Source: Oscillibacter sp. (lineage in GTDB: Bacteria > Bacillota > Clostridia > Oscillospirales > Oscillospiraceae). Taken from it: a DNA stretch of 33,735 nt. The DNA is taken from contig JAFSOM010000227.1 in the NCBI GenBank assembly GCA_017447005.1, positions 1 through 33,735 of the forward strand. The letters are read 5' to 3'. Positions 1-31,243 of this stretch are shown piece after piece. Numbering within the stretch: position 1 is the first letter of the stretch; each line of letters starts with the position of its first letter. The translations under genes and the position numbers were made by a program. The notes under the pieces are model-generated. The model searched no databases and was not told where the DNA came from. It worked only from the letters and a program-made list of their open reading frames with translations.

Positions 1-102
1 AAAGCGGACACGGGGCGAACTGTGCCCGTGTTGGCCTTGCCGTCGCTGCCCACGTCGCCGTAGCTGCCGTAAAAGACGAACGCGGTATTACTGTTATACT
101 CG
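1..102 (-). repeat. DGR variable repeat VR1 (IMH-like invariant 3' segment at 1-28)
   Basis: 88/102 identical to 29276-29377; the first 28 nt are identical; all 14 mismatches are at codon positions 1 or 2. Confidence 0.85.
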
Positions 103-1316
103 CAACAGGTCCACGGATAATAACCGTTACCGTATGCGGTCGCGAACCCCATTGCAACGGCGGTGTCGTTGAACGGGTCCTCCATTGTGTCGGAGGAGTT
201 CAAACGGCGGTCCGCCATAAGGATTGTAATTTCCTCGACGGACGGCAACCACCATTCGAGGTCGGGGTCCTCGGAACGGGAGTAATTGAACGCGGCGTCG
301 GCGGCCGGGAAACGGGGTTCATTTGCGCCGCGAACGTCGGTTCCCTTGAGAGCCGCGAGGAGGGCGGTTGTTTCCTTGCCGTCGCGGAGCATTGCGCCGA
401 ACGCGGACGGGTATTTGATGAAATGTTCGCCGATAAGATACGACGCATAATCCGCGTATTTGGCGCGGAGGGCGGCGCAATATTCGGAGTTCTCGAACGA
501 TGTTTGGTTGACAATTGTTGACGAACCGAGGGGGACGTTGGCGTCCGGAGTCGAACCGTTCGTCTTGTAATAGTCGACGAATCTCTTTTTGTTGCCTCCG
601 GCGAAATAGGAATCGACGCCGTTGTTGCGGCGGACCTGTTCGGCGGCGGAGAGGTACGCGTATTCGACTTGCCAATTGTGGGTATCCTCGACAAAGGCAA
701 CGCCCGAACCGCCGCCCGTTCCGGTTACGGAATCCACGGTGTCGCGGAGGTGGTAATTGTGCGCGAGGATGATTTGTGTTCCCACGGCGGCCGCAACCCA
801 CGCCTTGTCGTCGGCGTCGGTGAGGGTCGTAAACTGTGTTGAGATACTCGCGGCGATTGCGGCGAGGGTGGTTCCGGCCTCCCATTCAACGTCGACCTCC
901 TCGGTAACGGCCCCGTTGTTGTGAACAACGATTGCAAGGGTTCCGGCGATTTCGGGGTTAATGTTGTTAAGGGCGACCTCGAAAGGATGTCCCCAACGAT
1001 ACGAACCGAGGTTCTCGATTGCGGTAATTAACACCTTATCCCCCCGGCGGCCGTAAACCTCGGCGTACGGGTGGAGGTTCTCCGGGAATACGGAACGGAT
1101 AATCGTTCCGGCCTTGACGAAAACGCGCTTGTTTGCGTTGACGTCCTTACATACGAGGTCGCCGACTCCGGCGAGGTTCTTGTCCTCGAAAACGACGTTC
1201 ACGCCGTCGAACACGGCGCGGGAACCCTCGACGATACGGGACACGGCCGACGCGGTCGCCGAACGGGTGTTGTCGGCGTCGTAAGCGGCTTTTGTTGCGT
1301 AATTGTTGACTTGCAT
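1..1316 (-). CDS. DGR target protein 1, probable receptor-binding/tail-fibre tip protein with C-terminal CLec-like variable domain (3' end runs off the window)
   Basis: Absent from the ORF track because its stop lies outside the window. Manual translation from ATG 1316 gives an open frame: MQVNNYATKAAYDADNTR...WWLPSVEEITIL...YPWTCCEYNSNTAFVFYGSYGDVGSDGKANTGTVRPVSAF. The WxLPSxxE motif and terminal VRPVSAF are typical of CLec-fold DGR targets. It follows the fibre genes. Confidence 0.85.
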   Translation of the reverse strand, partial: MQVNNYATKAAYDADNTRSATASAVSRIVEGSRAVFDGVNVVFEDKNLAGVGDLVCKDVNANKRVFVKAGTIIRSVFPENLHPYAEVYGRRGDKVLITAIENLGSYRWGHPFEVALNNINPEIAGTLAIVVHNNGAVTEEVDVEWEAGTTLAAIAASISTQFTTLTDADDKAWVAAAVGTQIILAHNYHLRDTVDSVTGTGGGSGVAFVEDTHNWQVEYAYLSAAEQVRRNNGVDSYFAGGNKKRFVDYYKTNGSTPDANVPLGSSTIVNQTSFENSEYCAALRAKYADYASYLIGEHFIKYPSAFGAMLRDGKETTALLAALKGTDVRGANEPRFPAADAAFNYSRSEDPDLEWWLPSVEEITILMADRRLNSSDTMEDPFNDTAVAMGFATAYGNGYYPWTCCEYNSNTAFVFYGSYGDVGSDGKANTGTVRPVSA

Positions 1317-1328
1317 AATGAGAAATAA

Positions 1329-2411
1329 TTAAATGGTTTTCCAATCGGATACGGCCGAATTTCCGGTCGATTTGTAAACGGCGTTGTTCGCCTTATCAAT
1401 CCAAATTTGCCCGGCGCGGTCGGGTTTGACGTCCGGGGCGTTGGACGCAACGAAAATCAAATTGTTGTCGCCCCAAACCTCGAGTTTACGGACGGAAAGT
1501 TTCTCGACGAGAACGGTTCCGGATATAATCCCGATAACAAGGGCCGCGAGGGTTTCGAGTTTGGTTTCGACGGTTGCGTCGGCGTGTGCGAGGACCCCGA
1601 AAACGGTTTCCATATTCACAACGGCCGTTGTCGCGGCGGATGCGGCCGACGATGCGGCGGAGGCGGCGTCGTTTGCCGCGCTTGCGGCGGAATTCGCGCT
1701 CCCGGCGGCGGTATTGGCGGCGGTTGCCTTTTCGTCGGCGAGGGCGGCCTTTGCATTTGCAAGGACGGCCGCGTCATTTGCGAGTCCCGCCTTTGTGGTT
1801 GCAAGGGTCGCGGCGTCGTCCGCGAGTCCGGCCTTTGTATTAGCGAGTGCGGCGGCGGCGTTTGCGGCGTCGGTCGCCTGTGTTGCCGGGGCGACGATTT
1901 CCGCGAGGGCGTTATCATAACGGGATGTGAGGTCCGCGTAACCAACGGAAACGCCCGTGTCGACGTACGCGTTGAGGGAGTCGTCGTAAACGAGCCACGT
2001 GTTGTTGTTGGAAATCCTCGGGGAACACCCGGTTACGTCCACGTTGGACGGGAAATTCACAACAGTAAGGGCGAGGGCGACGGTTTGTTCAACATACCCG
2101 GCCGGGTTGTCGTCGTCGACGTTGATAATCTCGGCGAGGGCGGTTGAGTACATTGTGTTGTCGGACAACTTGACGTTGACGACGATTGCGTAATTACCCT
2201 CGGCCGTGAGTTCGCGTGTTGCGAGGAGCCGGATAAATACGTTGTTCGTCAATTCGTCGAAATTGATGTCCGCGAGGGTCATTGTTTGACCCCCGGGGAG
2301 TCGGAGAACGCCGCCGATATAACGAACCTTTCGCAAATCGACCGCAACTCCGGAGGGTTGGATAAGGGAAATTTTTAATCCACACCCGTAACCACGTTTT
2401 ACGTAATACAT
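1329..2411 (-). CDS. Putative tail fibre/stem protein with Ala-rich coiled coil and conserved C-terminal domain
   Basis: 360-aa ORF with Ala-rich ~14-aa periodic repeats (LANTKAGLADDAAT, LATTKAGLANDAAV); last 88 aa paralogous to those of 2438-3355; adjacent to DGR target 1. Confidence 0.6.
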   Translation of the reverse strand: MYYVKRGYGCGLKISLIQPSGVAVDLRKVRYIGGVLRLPGGQTMTLADINFDELTNNVFIRLLATRELTAEGNYAIVVNVKLSDNTMYSTALAEIINVDDDNPAGYVEQTVALALTVVNFPSNVDVTGCSPRISNNNTWLVYDDSLNAYVDTGVSVGYADLTSRYDNALAEIVAPATQATDAANAAAALANTKAGLADDAATLATTKAGLANDAAVLANAKAALADEKATAANTAAGSANSAASAANDAASAASSAASAATTAVVNMETVFGVLAHADATVETKLETLAALVIGIISGTVLVEKLSVRKLEVWGDNNLIFVASNAPDVKPDRAGQIWIDKANNAVYKSTGNSAVSDWKTI

Positions 2412-19624: not shown

Positions 19625-19651
19625 TGTTCAACCGTGTTTGGTGTTCAACCG

Positions 19652-19687
19652 CAAAGGTACAAAAAAGGTGTGTACTTAATACACACC
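19652..19687 (-). promoter_or_regulatory. Putative late promoter: -7 box TACCTTTG with upstream GGTGTGTA-N5-TACACACC palindrome
   Basis: caaaggta at 19652-19659; perfect 8-bp inverted repeat at 19667-19687. Confidence 0.65.
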
Positions 19688-23162: not shown

Positions 23163-24160
23163 TTCTTGCGGGGGAATTGGTGGTTATCAAAATACAATTT
23201 GTAATTCTCCGGGAGTCCGAGTGACCGGATAACAGTTTCCCCGGCGACGGAATGGAAATAATCGACGCAAGGGGTCGGGACATATAGAACGAACATTCGC
23301 GGCCCTTGCTGATTCATTGCGTCGGACGTTGTGCAAACACAACCGACGGAATCCCGGAGAATCCATTTGTCCGCGTTGGGATTGCCGGATTCCGTGAGGG
23401 CCTTGTAAATCCTTTCGACGAGCCATAATTCGTTGTTACCGCAAGTTTGAAACTCGTTGTCGAGTGTATATCCGTCGGCGGCCGCGAGGCGTTGCGCCGG
23501 GGTCCACCAAACAACGCCACCCTTTCCGGTCCAACGTTTGCGTTCATTCGCCGCGATAAACTGTTTAACCTGTTTCCCGGGATGTAAGGCGTTCGCAAAG
23601 AAAAAGACCTTGTAAAACGCCCTTTCCTCGGCGACGCGGTCCTCGGTCGAAAGGTCCGCAAGCGAAAAACCCGCCTCGCGCGATTTATTTTTTAGAGAAA
23701 TATCTTGTTGTTGTTCTTTTTTCGAGGATATATTCTCTCCATTATTACCGTTCTTTCTTTCTTTCCATTCTCCAAGTGTTGTTATTTGATTGTTATTTGA
23801 TTGTTGATTGTTTGTTATTTGATTGTTATTTGATTGTTGGTCGGCGTCCTCGTCGATTTGGTAATCGTCGAAATTACAAACACTTATGATTGTATATTTG
23901 TTTGTTGATTTTCTGACAATTTCTCCGGTGCGCTCGAGCCGCGTTAAACACGTCCTCACCTGTTGGGTTGTTAACCCGGTCGCCCGGACGAGTGCGTCAA
24001 CACTTGTCGGGAATTCACCCCGGCGGATATTGACGCATTGCCAAACGTGGTCCTTATGCGAGGCCGATAACAGGATGTAAATAAAGATTTGCACCATTTC
24101 CGGCCTCGAGAACCATTGCCAATTGAGGAACCGACGATATAATTTGACCCAACCGTCCAT
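23159..24160 (-). CDS. Phage replication initiator protein
   Basis: GWVKLYR N-terminus, HTH TSVDALVRATGLTTQQVRTCL..L...GEI, TIISVCNFDDYQ, then a Q/N-rich repeat linker. Confidence 0.8.
   Translation of the reverse strand: MDGWVKLYRRFLNWQWFSRPEMVQIFIYILLSASHKDHVWQCVNIRRGEFPTSVDALVRATGLTTQQVRTCLTRLERTGEIVRKSTNKYTIISVCNFDDYQIDEDADQQSNNNQITNNQQSNNNQITTLGEWKERKNGNNGENISSKKEQQQDISLKNKSREAGFSLADLSTEDRVAEERAFYKVFFFANALHPGKQVKQFIAANERKRWTGKGGVVWWTPAQRLAAADGYTLDNEFQTCGNNELWLVERIYKALTESGNPNADKWILRDSVGCVCTTSDAMNQQGPRMFVLYVPTPCVDYFHSVAGETVIRSLGLPENYKLYFDNHQFPRKK
23779..23839. repeat. Iteron-like tandem repeats, probable replication origin
   Basis: TTGTTATTTGA x2, one 11-nt variant, TTGTTATTTGA x2 (33-nt higher-order period), inside the initiator gene and next to an AT-rich tract. 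Confidence 0.7.
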
Positions 24161-24167
24161 AATTCGT

Positions 24168-24917
24168 CTATATTGCGAGTTTATCGAGCCGGACGATTAA
24201 ACCCTTGTCCGCGACGTAAACGTTCGCGTACGGGGCCGTTTTGCGTATTTCCTCGCGAAATATTGCGGGGTCCGCGTTGTCGCCCGACAAATGAATCAAT
24301 ACAACCGTTTCGAGGTCCGGGGTGTTGTGTTCCTTGACAATCGCCCGGCAACGGTCGAGGGATAAATGATTCTCCCGGACACGTTTTGCAAGGGCGGGAA
24401 CCATACGTCCACGGTAAACGTTCTCGTCGACAATCGGGTCGGCGTAATTCGCCTCGATAACCAAATGTCGGATTGTCGCCGATGCGAACGAGAAATTCAT
24501 TTTCCCGATGTCGGTTGCAAACAGGATTCGCCCGGATTCCGGGTGTTCAATGATATACGAAAATGGTTCGGCGGCGTCGTGGACGGCCGGGAACGGCCGG
24601 ACCTTGAACGGGCCGACGTCGTACAATTGCCACGTCCGGAGGGGTTCGACGAGGACGGAATCCTCGAGCCGGAGGGCGGCCCGGGTCCCCGGGGACATAA
24701 ACGCCCGGAATCCGAGTTCCAACCAACGACGGATAAATCCCGCGTGGTCGCCGTGTTCGTGGGTAATCAATACCCCGGCGATTTTGCGCGTCGATACCCG
24801 GACACGTTGGAAAACCTTTTCCGGGGCGACCCCGGCCTCGATGATGAGGACGGAGTCGTTCCCCTCGAGGACATAACAATTGCCGGACGACCCGGTCGCG
24901 ATTACGTGTAAGTTCAT
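24168..24917 (-). CDS. Metallo-beta-lactamase-fold hydrolase (probable exonuclease)
   Basis: GSSGNCY, THEHGDH, HDAAEP, ATD, IEANY, HLS motifs. Confidence 0.9.
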   Translation of the reverse strand: MNLHVIATGSSGNCYVLEGNDSVLIIEAGVAPEKVFQRVRVSTRKIAGVLITHEHGDHAGFIRRWLELGFRAFMSPGTRAALRLEDSVLVEPLRTWQLYDVGPFKVRPFPAVHDAAEPFSYIIEHPESGRILFATDIGKMNFSFASATIRHLVIEANYADPIVDENVYRGRMVPALAKRVRENHLSLDRCRAIVKEHNTPDLETVVLIHLSGDNADPAIFREEIRKTAPYANVYVADKGLIVRLDKLAI

Positions 24918-29183: not shown

Positions 29184-29262
29184 TGTCTTTGTCTTTAACC
29201 CCGTCCCGACCAACCCCGACAAAGCGGGGCGAGTCGGTCCGGGAACTGATTAACTTTTTAAC

Positions 29263-29778
29263 CTAAAACGGGAGAAAAGCGGACACGGGGCGAACTGTGC
29301 CCGCGTTGGACTTGCAGTAGTTGCACACGGCGCCGTAGTCGCCGTCAAAGACGAACGCGTAATAACTGTAATACTCGGGGTCCGGGTCCTCGTCCTCGGT
29401 CCACATCCAACGGGCGTCGCCTTTGTGGAGGGGCGTTCCGCCGACAACGTCGAGGGCGTCGTCGAGTCCTTGAAAACGGGCGTCGTAAATGTCGAGGACC
29501 TCGCGGCGGTCCGGGAGGTGGAATCCCTCGACGGCGAGATTCGCGACGGATGTTGACGGGGTGAACGCCTTTGCAAGTTCGACGGCCTTTTCCCAACGGA
29601 AATTGATTTCGCCGTCCACCTTGACGGGGTCCTTTGCTATAATGATTCCGTCGCCGTGTTTGTTGACGATTGCGACGAATTCGGCGGACGTCGGGTTCTC
29701 GACCTTGCGCCAATCCTCGAGGGATACGAATTCCCCGTTTGCGGGGTTCACGATGAAAATTGAAAATGCGTGTTTCAT
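29263..29778 (-). CDS. DGR target protein 2, stand-alone CLec-like domain in the early operon
   Basis: 171 aa; GFHLPDRRE, WMWT and C-terminal VRPVSAF; its 3' end carries VR2. Confidence 0.85.
   Translation of the reverse strand: MKHAFSIFIVNPANGEFVSLEDWRKVENPTSAEFVAIVNKHGDGIIIAKDPVKVDGEINFRWEKAVELAKAFTPSTSVANLAVEGFHLPDRREVLDIYDARFQGLDDALDVVGGTPLHKGDARWMWTEDEDPDPEYYSYYAFVFDGDYGAVCNYCKSNAGTVRPVSAFLPF
29276..29377 (-). repeat. DGR variable repeat VR2
   Basis: 88/102 identical to 1-102; mismatches only at codon positions 1-2. Confidence 0.85.
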
Positions 29779-29800: not shown

Positions 29801-30628
29801 TTATAAATCAATTTTGAAATAATCGGATAAGTATTGCCTCGCGTCGATTGCTAATTCCGGAAAGATACCCCCCCCTATTTTGAGGCGGTATTCCTCGAGG
29901 TTGTGGCAAAAGAATTGATAAAACATTGATTTGTAGACGTCCCCGTCAAAGGCCCGGCCCCTGTTCGGGTCGGCGGCGTAAAACCGTTTTTTCGCCTCGA
30001 TTACCTGTTTGAGGAGTTTAGGATATTTCTTGAAACCCTCCCGGCCGTTACCGGACGCAAGGGGACAACCGATGCAACCGAGGCGGCGTTCGACGTGGAA
30101 TTGACCGTTCTCGTCGTAATAGACCGGGGCGCATTTGATACCGCGTTCCTCGATGAACCGGGCGACGTCCTCGTCCGTCCATTCGAGAACCGGGAGATAT
30201 ACGCGGACTTTTTCCTTTGCGGAATAGACCCGGCAAATTTCGGGTTCGTGGTAACGTTGCGCCCGTTTAGTGGATTCGGCCCGGCGGATTCCCTGTATTG
30301 CGCGGTTATATACTTTGTATTCCTTGAGGACCTCGCAACAAAAGCGGGAAAACCGGGACGGCGTCCCCTTTTTTTCGACGAGTTGTAAGAATGTGAGTTT
30401 CGGTTTGAGGATTGTAACGCCCTGTTCCTTGCAATGCGTGATTGTTCCCGGAGGGTCGATTGTCGTATTCTTGTAAATCGCCTCGAAAGGGATTCCCGAC
30501 ATACGGGCGAGTTCGAGGATAACGTCGGAATCTTTCCCGCCGGAATACGACAACTCAATCGGGCCGTCGTCGGTCGGGATTGACCGCAACAGTTTGATTG
30601 CAAAATCGACTTTTCGTTCGAGGTTCAT
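29801..30628 (-). CDS. PAPS-reductase-family (PP-loop) protein
   Basis: SYSGGKDS PP-loop, RFCCEVLKE, GIRRAES..RA, RLGCIGCP. Confidence 0.88.
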   Translation of the reverse strand: MNLERKVDFAIKLLRSIPTDDGPIELSYSGGKDSDVILELARMSGIPFEAIYKNTTIDPPGTITHCKEQGVTILKPKLTFLQLVEKKGTPSRFSRFCCEVLKEYKVYNRAIQGIRRAESTKRAQRYHEPEICRVYSAKEKVRVYLPVLEWTDEDVARFIEERGIKCAPVYYDENGQFHVERRLGCIGCPLASGNGREGFKKYPKLLKQVIEAKKRFYAADPNRGRAFDGDVYKSMFYQFFCHNLEEYRLKIGGGIFPELAIDARQYLSDYFKIDL

Positions 30629-30638
30629 AATCCAATTG

Positions 30639-30670
30639 TTTGTGCGTTGTCAAAAAATTACATATATTTG
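30639..30670 (+). promoter_or_regulatory. Putative rightward Bacteroidota sigma-A promoter for the repressor cluster
   Basis: TTTG (30639-30642)-N20-TATATTTG (30663-30670); a second -7 box TACCTTTG at 30697-30704. Confidence 0.55.
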
Positions 30671-30728
30671 CCATTTACGGCGGGTTAAATTGTTCGTACC
30701 TTTGCGGTGTGGAATCGTTAACCGATTG

Positions 30729-30760
30729 CAAAACTAAACATATTGTTTGGAAATACCAAA
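30729..30760 (-). promoter_or_regulatory. Putative leftward early (lytic) promoter
   Basis: Minus-strand TTTG (30757-30760)-N20-TAGTTTTG (30729-30736); overlapped by inverted repeats AAACA-N3-TGTTT and TTTGG-N5-CCAAA. Confidence 0.6.
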
Positions 30761-30799
30761 TTTTCCGAACATTATTTTTGGAGAAATTTTACGCACAAA

Positions 30800-31243
30800 A
30801 TGGATATAATTAAAAATCAGCGAGTTGCGGAATTGGTCGCCGAATTGAAAAATCGGCACATTGTCCGGAATCAATCGCATTTTGCCGAGATAATCGGCTC
30901 CGACAAGGCGACTATTTCGGAAATTATCCGTGAACAAATCGAGGTTCCGAAAACTTTGTTCGGAAAAATCCTCGACAAATTCCCGTCGGTTTCCCGGGAA
31001 TGGTTGGAATCCGGAACCGGGCCGATGTTCCGGGCCGAGTTCGGCCCCACGCCGGGCGACCCGTTCCCCGTCCACGTCGAGGGCGATTACGCGAATTTCG
31101 GGAATCAAAAGGTTTCGATTATGTCTCCGGAGGTGATGTCGTACCTCCGGGAGGAACAACGACAATCGGCCGTTCATTTGACACAAATTGACCGACTGAT
31201 TGCGATAATTGAACATATAACCGGAACCCCGTTCGACAAATAG
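30800..31243 (+). CDS. CI-like XRE-family repressor (no peptidase domain)
   Basis: NQSHFAEIIGSDKATISEI HTH and VSREWLESGTGPM motif; divergent from the early operon; ATG 30800. Confidence 0.75.
   Translation: MDIIKNQRVAELVAELKNRHIVRNQSHFAEIIGSDKATISEIIREQIEVPKTLFGKILDKFPSVSREWLESGTGPMFRAEFGPTPGDPFPVHVEGDYANFGNQKVSIMSPEVMSYLREEQRQSAVHLTQIDRLIAIIEHITGTPFDK

What the first reader, a model, noticed from the sequence alone, without database searches (positions are those of the whole stretch)
29263..29778. Remote DGR target embedded in the early operon: a hypervariable non-structural protein?
Seen: VR2 ends a 171-aa gene that is second in the leftward early operon, between the PAPS-reductase-like gene and a membrane protein/HTH cluster, about 10 kb from the nearest morphogenesis gene. 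It has no signal peptide and no fibre or coiled-coil N-terminus, and looks like a bare CLec-like domain. Its DNA similarity to target 1 stops abruptly at the VR boundary (29378). Established: characterised phage DGR targets such as Bordetella BPP-1 Mtd are virion receptor-binding proteins, and multi-target DGRs exist. Inference: this phage may use the same retroelement to evolve an intracellular early binder, for example against host defence or regulatory proteins, in parallel with host-range switching. This is the best candidate for an undescribed system in the window.
Basis: partly seen in the sequence, partly recalled or inferred. Interest (0 to 1): 0.92.

Follow-up and report, generated by a model that had tools for sequence, protein, structure and literature searches.

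The report
Active second DGR target, early operon
A temperate gut phage uses one targeted-mutation element (a diversity-generating retroelement) to rewrite both its tail-side gene and a small stand-alone lectin-fold gene among its early genes, which likely makes a variable binder that works inside the infected cell; this layout is already published for other phages and the protein's job is still untested.

Summary
The template repeat (TR), Avd and reverse transcriptase are not in the window but on contig C335. VR2 differs from that TR at 20 of 38 adenines and at no other base, and has its own homing site and downstream hairpin. It is not a relic. Same-TR strains carry other alleles, all changed at TR adenines. 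One cluster has 15 different VRs on near-identical scaffolds. VR2 follows its own TR in 5 distinct relatives. The 171-aa protein is a predicted stand-alone Lcl-type C-lectin domain under purifying selection. It lies behind a repressor-facing promoter, and 0 of 20 neighbourhoods showed tail or capsid families. Its function is not shown: an intracellular early binder is the best guess (0.5). VR1 and VR2 residue spectra are nearly the same, so hitch-hiking remains possible. It is not undescribed: distal non-structural second targets are published (Quimbyvirus 2021, Shimadzu 2019, Dahlman 2025), and this scan noted the layout in at least 20 other genomes. New member of a known kind.

The parts
29263..29778 (-). 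Target 2: 171-aa stand-alone C-type-lectin-like (Lcl_C/DUF1566-like) protein
   Evidence: 86 homologues; scaffold dN/dS 0.37-0.51 against four relatives
29276..29377 (-). VR2, matched to the TR on C335 (2447-2552); observed allele changes fall between 29300 and 29375
29276..29290 (-). IMH-like 3' end of VR2: ends GCTTT as VR1 does, where the TR (IMH*) reads GAATT
29199..29237 (-). GC-rich inverted repeat about 40 nt downstream of the IMH (predicted DGR homing hairpin); not called terminator-like
   Evidence: similar hairpins follow the 5 of 5 relative VR2s and 5 of 5 relative VR1s folded
1..1316 (-). Target 1 (439 aa, cut by the contig end), right after the tail-fibre-like genes; VR1 = 1-102
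30729..30760 (-). Bacteroidota-type -33/-7 promoter-like site heading the leftward early operon (consensus recalled, not from a call)
   Evidence: conserved in G001 and four relative loci
30639..30670 (+). Face-to-face promoter-like site for the repressor-like gene
30800..31243 (+). Repressor (CI)-like helix-turn-helix gene, divergent from the early operon
   Evidence: weak HTH_3 hit; the name is inferred from the layout
29801..30628 (-). PAPS-reductase-like gene in the variable first slot of the operon; not a fixed partner of target 2
   Evidence: replaced in L033, absent in L034
28634..29183 (-). Small membrane protein and Cro-like HTH gene downstream of target 2
19667..19687 (-). Conserved palindrome plus T run, followed by a -7-like box just before the small terminase: likely early/late boundary

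Best explanation
The phage's single DGR rewrites the adenine-matched positions of VR2 in an early-operon gene, and the product is likely a non-virion, cytoplasmic lectin-fold binder whose randomised face would occasionally fit and block a host or co-resident-element protein that hinders the start of lytic growth. Shown: a TR-matched VR2 with IMH and hairpin; allele turnover at TR adenines; independence from VR1; a conserved scaffold; early-module location across divergent phages. Inferred: transcription from the repressor-controlled promoter just after infection or induction; cytoplasmic location; absence from virions. Conjecture: the ligand is a defence, regulatory or rival-prophage protein, and binding sequesters it, since the protein carries no effector domain.
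For: Activity. 20 of 20 VR2-TR mismatches are at adenines. VR2 carries its own TR's non-adenine letters in G000, G001 and G003 (0 mismatches to the own TR; 3-4 between the G000/G001 pair, 11-18 against G003's lineage). Of 7 virus records at least 89% complete, 6 (5 distinct phages; G001 = G002) hold an RT and a TR matching VR2. Strains with the same TR flanks show alleles differing from the window at 16, 17 and 7 (partial) VR positions, all TR adenines. In 10 of 10 clusters VR p-distance is 0.24-0.40 against 0.001-0.07 for the scaffold. Functional protein: scaffold dN/dS is below 1 in 9 of 10 pairs (0.13-0.51). Non-virion: 0 of 20 loci show tail or capsid Pfam families among up to three same-strand ORFs on each side; 13 show recombination, replication, methylase, regulator or other early-type neighbours. 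It is first after the repressor-like gene in L019 and L034. 95 of 97 further homologues are 350 aa or shorter, and 2 of 97 look signal-bearing by a rough screen. Fusions seen are to small phage modules, not fibres. VR1 and VR2 of the same phage are uncorrelated (4.43 shared residues vs null 4.36, p 0.45, 14 heuristic pairs).
Against: No ligand, expression or virion data. VR2 and VR1 residue spectra are almost identical (entropy 2.82 vs 2.80 bits; only Asp differs, 8.4% vs 5.1%, p 0.002 before correcting for 11 tests), so no sign of distinct selection. In Shimadzu, VR2 alleles were less selected than VR1. The fold matches tail-fibre tip modules (TM 0.58-0.66). Methylases are within three ORFs in only 3 of 20 loci and about 8 kb away in the window, so 'defence island' is weak. 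The gene has no PADLOC or PHROG match. Both VRs are unchanged across three samples of one study (contigs drop rare variants).
Confidence: 0.5

Rival explanations
1. Hitch-hiking target: the protein does a VR-independent job through its conserved scaffold, and VR2 keeps being rewritten because retrohoming itself maintains the homology; most variation is neutral.
For: The VR2 spectrum is nearly that of VR1, with no conserved position among the TR asparagine codons. VR2 was weakly selected in Shimadzu. The IMH lies in constrained coding sequence. An invariant scaffold motif (Y98-x-A100-R101, L105-D106) lies outside the VR. The distal target is core even without the DGR in Toutatisvirus.
Against: A non-terminator hairpin follows VR2 in 6 of 6 phages folded, in different gene neighbourhoods, and has diverged in sequence while keeping its fold. 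The RT-less copy looks relaxed: 7 non-synonymous among 10 differences between two copies, VR protein unchanged (n = 2). VR1, which is surely selected, shows the same spectrum, so the spectrum test has little power.
Confidence: 0.25
2. Virion accessory: a second receptor-binding or decoration module that is made from the early region and docks non-covalently on the particle.
For: Structural match to tail-fibre C-terminal modules. Characterised phage DGR targets are virion adhesins. Baykov 2023 and Egorov 2024 favour a receptor-binding role for small second targets. Early and late genes share one strand here.
Against: No anchor or fibre segment. Never beside tail or capsid families in 20 loci. 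A conserved palindrome and -7-like box separate the operon from the packaging genes.
Confidence: 0.15
3. Receptor mask or allele archive: it is released at lysis to block the receptor that target 1 binds, or it donates VR sequence to target 1.
For: Both VRs share the TR frame and IMH, so recombination is possible.
Against: VR1 and VR2 are uncorrelated within phages (p 0.45), and the scaffolds are unrelated outside the VR.
Confidence: 0.05
4. Frozen relic, or a chance or assembly repeat.
For: The allele is identical in three samples of one study.
Against: Adenine-only differences, tracking of its own TR and many alleles; one contig spans the whole stretch in run X1, which may be the source, and complete relatives have the same layout.
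Confidence: 0.02

Closest known systems
Quimbyvirus distal DGR target (ORF 80/84; Benler et al. 2021, PMC8008677; section 17 and passages read)
   Same: A Bacteroidota temperate phage with one TR, a tail-side target and a distal C-lectin target; a role in phage-host conflict was proposed.
   Different: There the gene is on the strand opposite the structural module, among four methylases, in a family of about 75 kb. Here it is on the same strand, first or second after the repressor-facing promoter of a 40-kb phage. Protein homology to ORF 80/84 was not tested; no tblastn match in 50,697 deposited phage records.
Four inducible gut prophage species with a distal second VR (Dahlman et al. 2025, PMC12629997; passages read)
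   Same: Second VR far from the RT cassette; a counter-defence role was suggested.
   Different: Those lie near DNA methylases; here methylase proximity is inconsistent (3 of 20 loci).
Roseburia phage Shimadzu VR2 in orf43 (Cornuault et al., bioRxiv 10.1101/575076; passages read)
   Same: Second VR in a gene of unknown function; both VRs are mutagenised.
   Different: Firmicute myovirus; read-level data exist there and show weaker selection on VR2. Homology was not tested.
Small DUF6273 second targets of Toutatisvirus and nd4/nd12 phages (Egorov 2024, section 10 read; Baykov 2023, abstract and sections 9 and 11 read)
   Same: Single-domain C-lectin second target, 17.5 kb from the TR in Toutatis, kept when the DGR is lost.
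   Different: A different Pfam family (DUF6273; here a weak Lcl_C match); those authors favour receptor binding.
Bordetella BPP-1 DGR (mtd-avd-TR-brt; as described in Wu et al. 2017, PMC5758913, passages and section 13 read)
   Same: Cassette order, adenine-specific VR, IMH/IMH*, downstream GC-rich inverted repeat.
   Different: BPP-1 has one target, a virion adhesin.

Membership tests
DGR target | VR differs from a TR almost only at TR adenines | tested here: met
   20 of 20 mismatches
DGR target | Cognate intact RT and accessory gene beside the TR in the same element | tested here: met
   RVT_1 with a YVDD motif and no stops, plus an Avd hit, on C335. Linkage to C116 rests on synteny with complete relative G001, not on one contig of this assembly.
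DGR target | IMH distinct from IMH*, with a downstream GC-rich inverted repeat | tested here: met
DGR target | C-type-lectin fold with the VR at the C-terminus | tested here: met
   Model pLDDT 76.7, best PDB match Lcl C-terminal domain 8q4e. The VR loops are low-confidence, so their surface layout is not established.
DGR target | Ongoing adenine-directed diversification | tested here: met
   Between strains and samples; read-level rates not measurable, as only contigs were served.
Virion receptor-binding DGR target (Mtd-like) | Gene in the tail module with an N-terminal anchor or fibre segment | tested here: not met
Virion receptor-binding DGR target (Mtd-like) | Present in virions | not testable with these tools
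   needs proteomics
Distal non-structural second target (Quimbyvirus-type) | VR gene far from the cassette, outside the morphogenesis module | tested here: met
   9.8-14.3 kb from the TR on the circular map in 5 relatives (G005 treated as circular although its record is linear)
Distal non-structural second target (Quimbyvirus-type) | Nested among counter-defence genes such as methylases | tested here: inconclusive
   3 of 20 loci; the window's neighbour resembles BrxP/DndC only through the PAPS-reductase domain
Distal non-structural second target (Quimbyvirus-type) | Protein homology to the published second targets | not tested
   Those proteins were not fetched; the indirect search was blank.
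Phage anti-defence protein | Binds and inhibits a host defence component | not testable with these tools
   no family match; needs experiment

The most novel reading that the evidence does not exclude
This family (about 100 clusters at 50% identity with E up to 1e-10) is a phage-made, antibody-like intracellular inhibitor. It is made among the first proteins after the lytic switch and randomised by the DGR, so that each lineage evolves a binder against whichever defence sensor or rival prophage repressor blocks it in a new host. One retroelement would then adapt both entry (VR1) and survival after entry (VR2).
Probability: 0.35. Interest if true: 0.85.

Novelty: new member of a known kind. Interest (0 to 1): 0.4.

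Why it matters
What distal, non-structural phage DGR targets do has been open since at least 2019-2021. This case adds a compact protein family with many natural alleles, shows that VR2 is diversified as much as the tail-side VR1 but independently of it, and offers a natural RT-less comparison. If the protein is an intracellular inhibitor, phages would have programmable counter-defence. The layout itself is not new, and no cultured host is at hand for this phage, which limits how directly it can be tested.

Tried and rejected
No RNA holder was listed, so nothing can be said on expression. Only contigs were served, so within-sample VR1/VR2 read diversity could not be measured. The VIA structural comparison never ran, so there is no direct comparison with Mtd, TaqVP or TvpA. 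The single-sequence model of target 1 was unusable (pLDDT 36). A search for long fused forms (435-2000 aa) was blank, which is weak evidence. PHROG, PADLOC and deposited-phage searches of target 2 were blank, and the sequence search of the PDB gave nothing significant (best E 0.084). A fixed PAPS-reductase/target-2 module was rejected, since the slot varies. A DNA-mimic reading was considered: pI 4.6, but target 1's C-terminal domain is as acidic (4.4). The T-to-G change in VR1 of three genomes is not a family rule (Ala or Val in about 2 of 78 alleles). Cross-comparisons involving G004 were out of register by one base and were dropped; its self-comparison (0 non-adenine mismatches) was kept. 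0 of 150 sampled genomes of the assembly's family hold the gene. The look-ups of earlier findings by sequence and by relatives were blank. Supplements of the cited papers were not read; genome maps there may show whether any published second target is a homologue.

Full report
What the window is. The window is the whole contig C116. It holds most of a temperate phage: tail and head genes at left, then terminase, a replication/recombination operon, and a repressor-like switch at right. The assembly breaks inside VR1 at position 1. The rest of the phage is on C335 (avd, TR, RT, lysis genes) and C94 (81% match to the probable integrase gene of G001; name inferred from position). The three pieces line up at about 80% with a complete 39.8-kb relative, G001, which also occurs as an identical provirus, G002. 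The assembly looks like a spore-former (Spo0A present, SusD not found). The phage has Bacteroidota-type promoter sites (consensus recalled), its closest terminase and RT are from Bacteroides phages, and 5 of 7 genome hits are in Bacteroidota bins. It is probably mis-binned, so the host is inferred, not shown.

The observation. VR2 (29276-29377) matches the TR on C335 with 20 of 38 adenines changed and no other mismatch over 100 nt; VR1 has 17 adenine changes and one other. The chance that all 20 fall on adenines is 6e-11. Both VRs end in the same IMH-like letters, which differ from the TR's, and a GC-rich inverted repeat follows VR2 at 29237-29199. The terminator scan did not call it. Wu 2017 describes exactly these elements (passages). 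Similarity to target 1 is confined to the VR end. The protein's model (pLDDT 76.7) best matches the Legionella Lcl C-terminal lectin-like domain and the C-terminal modules of phage tail fibres. It is therefore probably a detached fibre-tip-type module.

Is it active? Yes, at the level of the phage group. (i) VR2 follows its own TR at non-adenine sites: 0 mismatches to the own TR in G000, G001, G003 and G004, against 3-4 between G000 and G001 and 11-18 against G003's lineage (G004 cross-comparisons dropped as out of register). (ii) Of 7 virus records at least 89% complete, 6 (5 distinct phages) hold an RT and a TR matching the homologue's VR, with 17/17, 12/12, 13/14, 16/18 and 23/23 mismatches at adenines. 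The seventh, a 132-kb phage, has no RT or TR detected. Three fragmentary virus records and three bins also gave no RT, and two bins with RTs were not checked for a TR. (iii) In 10 of 10 clusters the VR p-distance is 0.24-0.40 against 0.001-0.07 for the scaffold; cluster 4 has 15 different VRs among 15 listed members on 2 scaffold variants (at most 15 members listed per cluster). (iv) Four samples of one study hold a strain with the same TR flanks. They show alleles differing from the window at 16 (X4, X10), 17 (X5) and 7 (partial, X7) VR positions, all at TR adenines, and X7 holds at least two alleles. Against: three samples of the probable source study show the window's VR1 and VR2 unchanged.

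Is it a working, non-structural gene? Scaffold dN/dS is 0.13-0.51 in 9 of 10 pairs; the tenth pair has almost no synonymous change. The window has only three full -33/-7 sites; two face each other between the repressor-like gene and the PAPS-reductase-like gene, against 0.015 expected by shuffling, and they are conserved in relatives. Target 2 is second behind the leftward one; in L034 and L019 it is first, and in L033 another gene fills the first slot. A conserved palindrome and -7-like box before the small terminase likely mark a separate late unit. In 20 loci scanned (up to three same-strand ORFs each side; near-duplicate loci L023 and L042 left out), 13 have recombination, replication, methylase, regulator or other early-type neighbours. 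One lies at the HNH/terminase edge, one beside a transposase, and five have no Pfam hits; none shows tail or capsid families. The gene moves around within the early region but was not seen in the tail module. Of 97 further homologues, 78 are 200 aa or shorter, 2 exceed 350 aa, and 2 look signal-bearing by a rough screen. The family has 100 clusters at E up to 1e-10.

How it likely works. Inferred: the gene is read from the repressor-controlled promoter early in lytic growth and the protein stays in the cytoplasm. With no effector domain, it can act only by binding, so the most likely role is to sequester a variable intracellular opponent, from the host or a co-resident element (0.5). No evidence names the ligand. 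The main rival is hitch-hiking (0.25): VR2's residue spectrum over 104 alleles nearly equals VR1's over 78 (entropy 2.82 vs 2.80; overall p 0.04, driven by more Asp), and Shimadzu's VR2 was weakly selected. Against that rival, the hairpin is kept after VR2 in every phage folded, and two copies in the RT-less phage differ by 7 non-synonymous among 10 changes with an unchanged VR protein (n = 2). A virion accessory role (0.15) is not excluded without proteomics.

Novelty. Non-adjacent targets within prophages are catalogued (Wu 2017, section 13). A distal non-structural target with a proposed conflict role is in Benler 2021 (section 17) and Dahlman 2025 (passages). Activity of a second VR is in Cornuault 2019 (passages), and small second targets are in Baykov 2023 and Egorov 2024. 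I also read passages of Roux 2021, the UHGV preprint, Macadangdang 2024 and PMC11792537, which add nothing on function. Six searches turned up no paper that assigns a tested function to such a target; the library lacks most subscription papers, and supplements were not read. This scan holds 20 findings with the same key words in at least 20 genomes, none on look-alike DNA. This protein family appears unnamed (no PHROG or deposited-phage match). Verdict: real and active, a new member of a known but functionally unexplained class; interest 0.4.

Noticed in passing
G000 as a whole; C116, C335, C94: The assembly looks like a spore-forming firmicute (Spo0A present, SusD not found), but the phage looks Bacteroidota-infecting; it is probably mis-binned and split over three contigs.
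   Followed up: partly
L017:9950-10480 and L044:322-852 (G008): A 132-kb phage with no detected RT or TR keeps a homologue with VR-like end, IMH and hairpin; two copies differ mainly by non-synonymous scaffold changes while the VR protein is unchanged.
   Followed up: partly
window 19650-19687 (-): A palindrome, T run and -7-like box just before the small terminase, conserved in G001: a terminator or an activator-dependent late promoter.
   Followed up: partly
window 30629-30799: Face-to-face promoter-like sites between the repressor-like gene and the lytic operon, highly conserved in five relatives.
   Followed up: partly
window 29801-30628: The first slot of the early operon is variable: PAPS-reductase-like gene, an unrelated 119-aa gene (L033; a similar gene sits beside the probable integrase in G001), or empty (L034).
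   Followed up: partly
window 35 (VR1): VR1 has the same non-adenine T-to-G difference from its TR (tyrosine codon) in G000, G001 and G003, though Ala or Val occurs there in only about 2 of 78 pooled alleles; unexplained.
   Followed up: partly
window 29240-29262 and downstream of VR1: The spacer between stop codon and hairpin is similar after VR2 and after VR1 (the latter seen only as a loose contig end); it may be part of target recognition.
   Followed up: no
L009:2403-2569: The TR is in frame with the RT open reading frame, so the RT start may lie inside the IMH* region.
   Followed up: no
window 23779-23839: 11-bp tandem repeats inside the replication-initiator gene, iteron-like.
   Followed up: no
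window 1329-1595 and 2438-2704: The two tail-fibre-like genes share a 66%-identical C-terminal module, a possible docking site for target 1.
   Followed up: no
window 24168-24917: Metallo-beta-lactamase-fold hydrolase with a weak, below-cut-off match to anti-Pycsar Apyc1; more likely the usual recombination-operon hydrolase.
   Followed up: no
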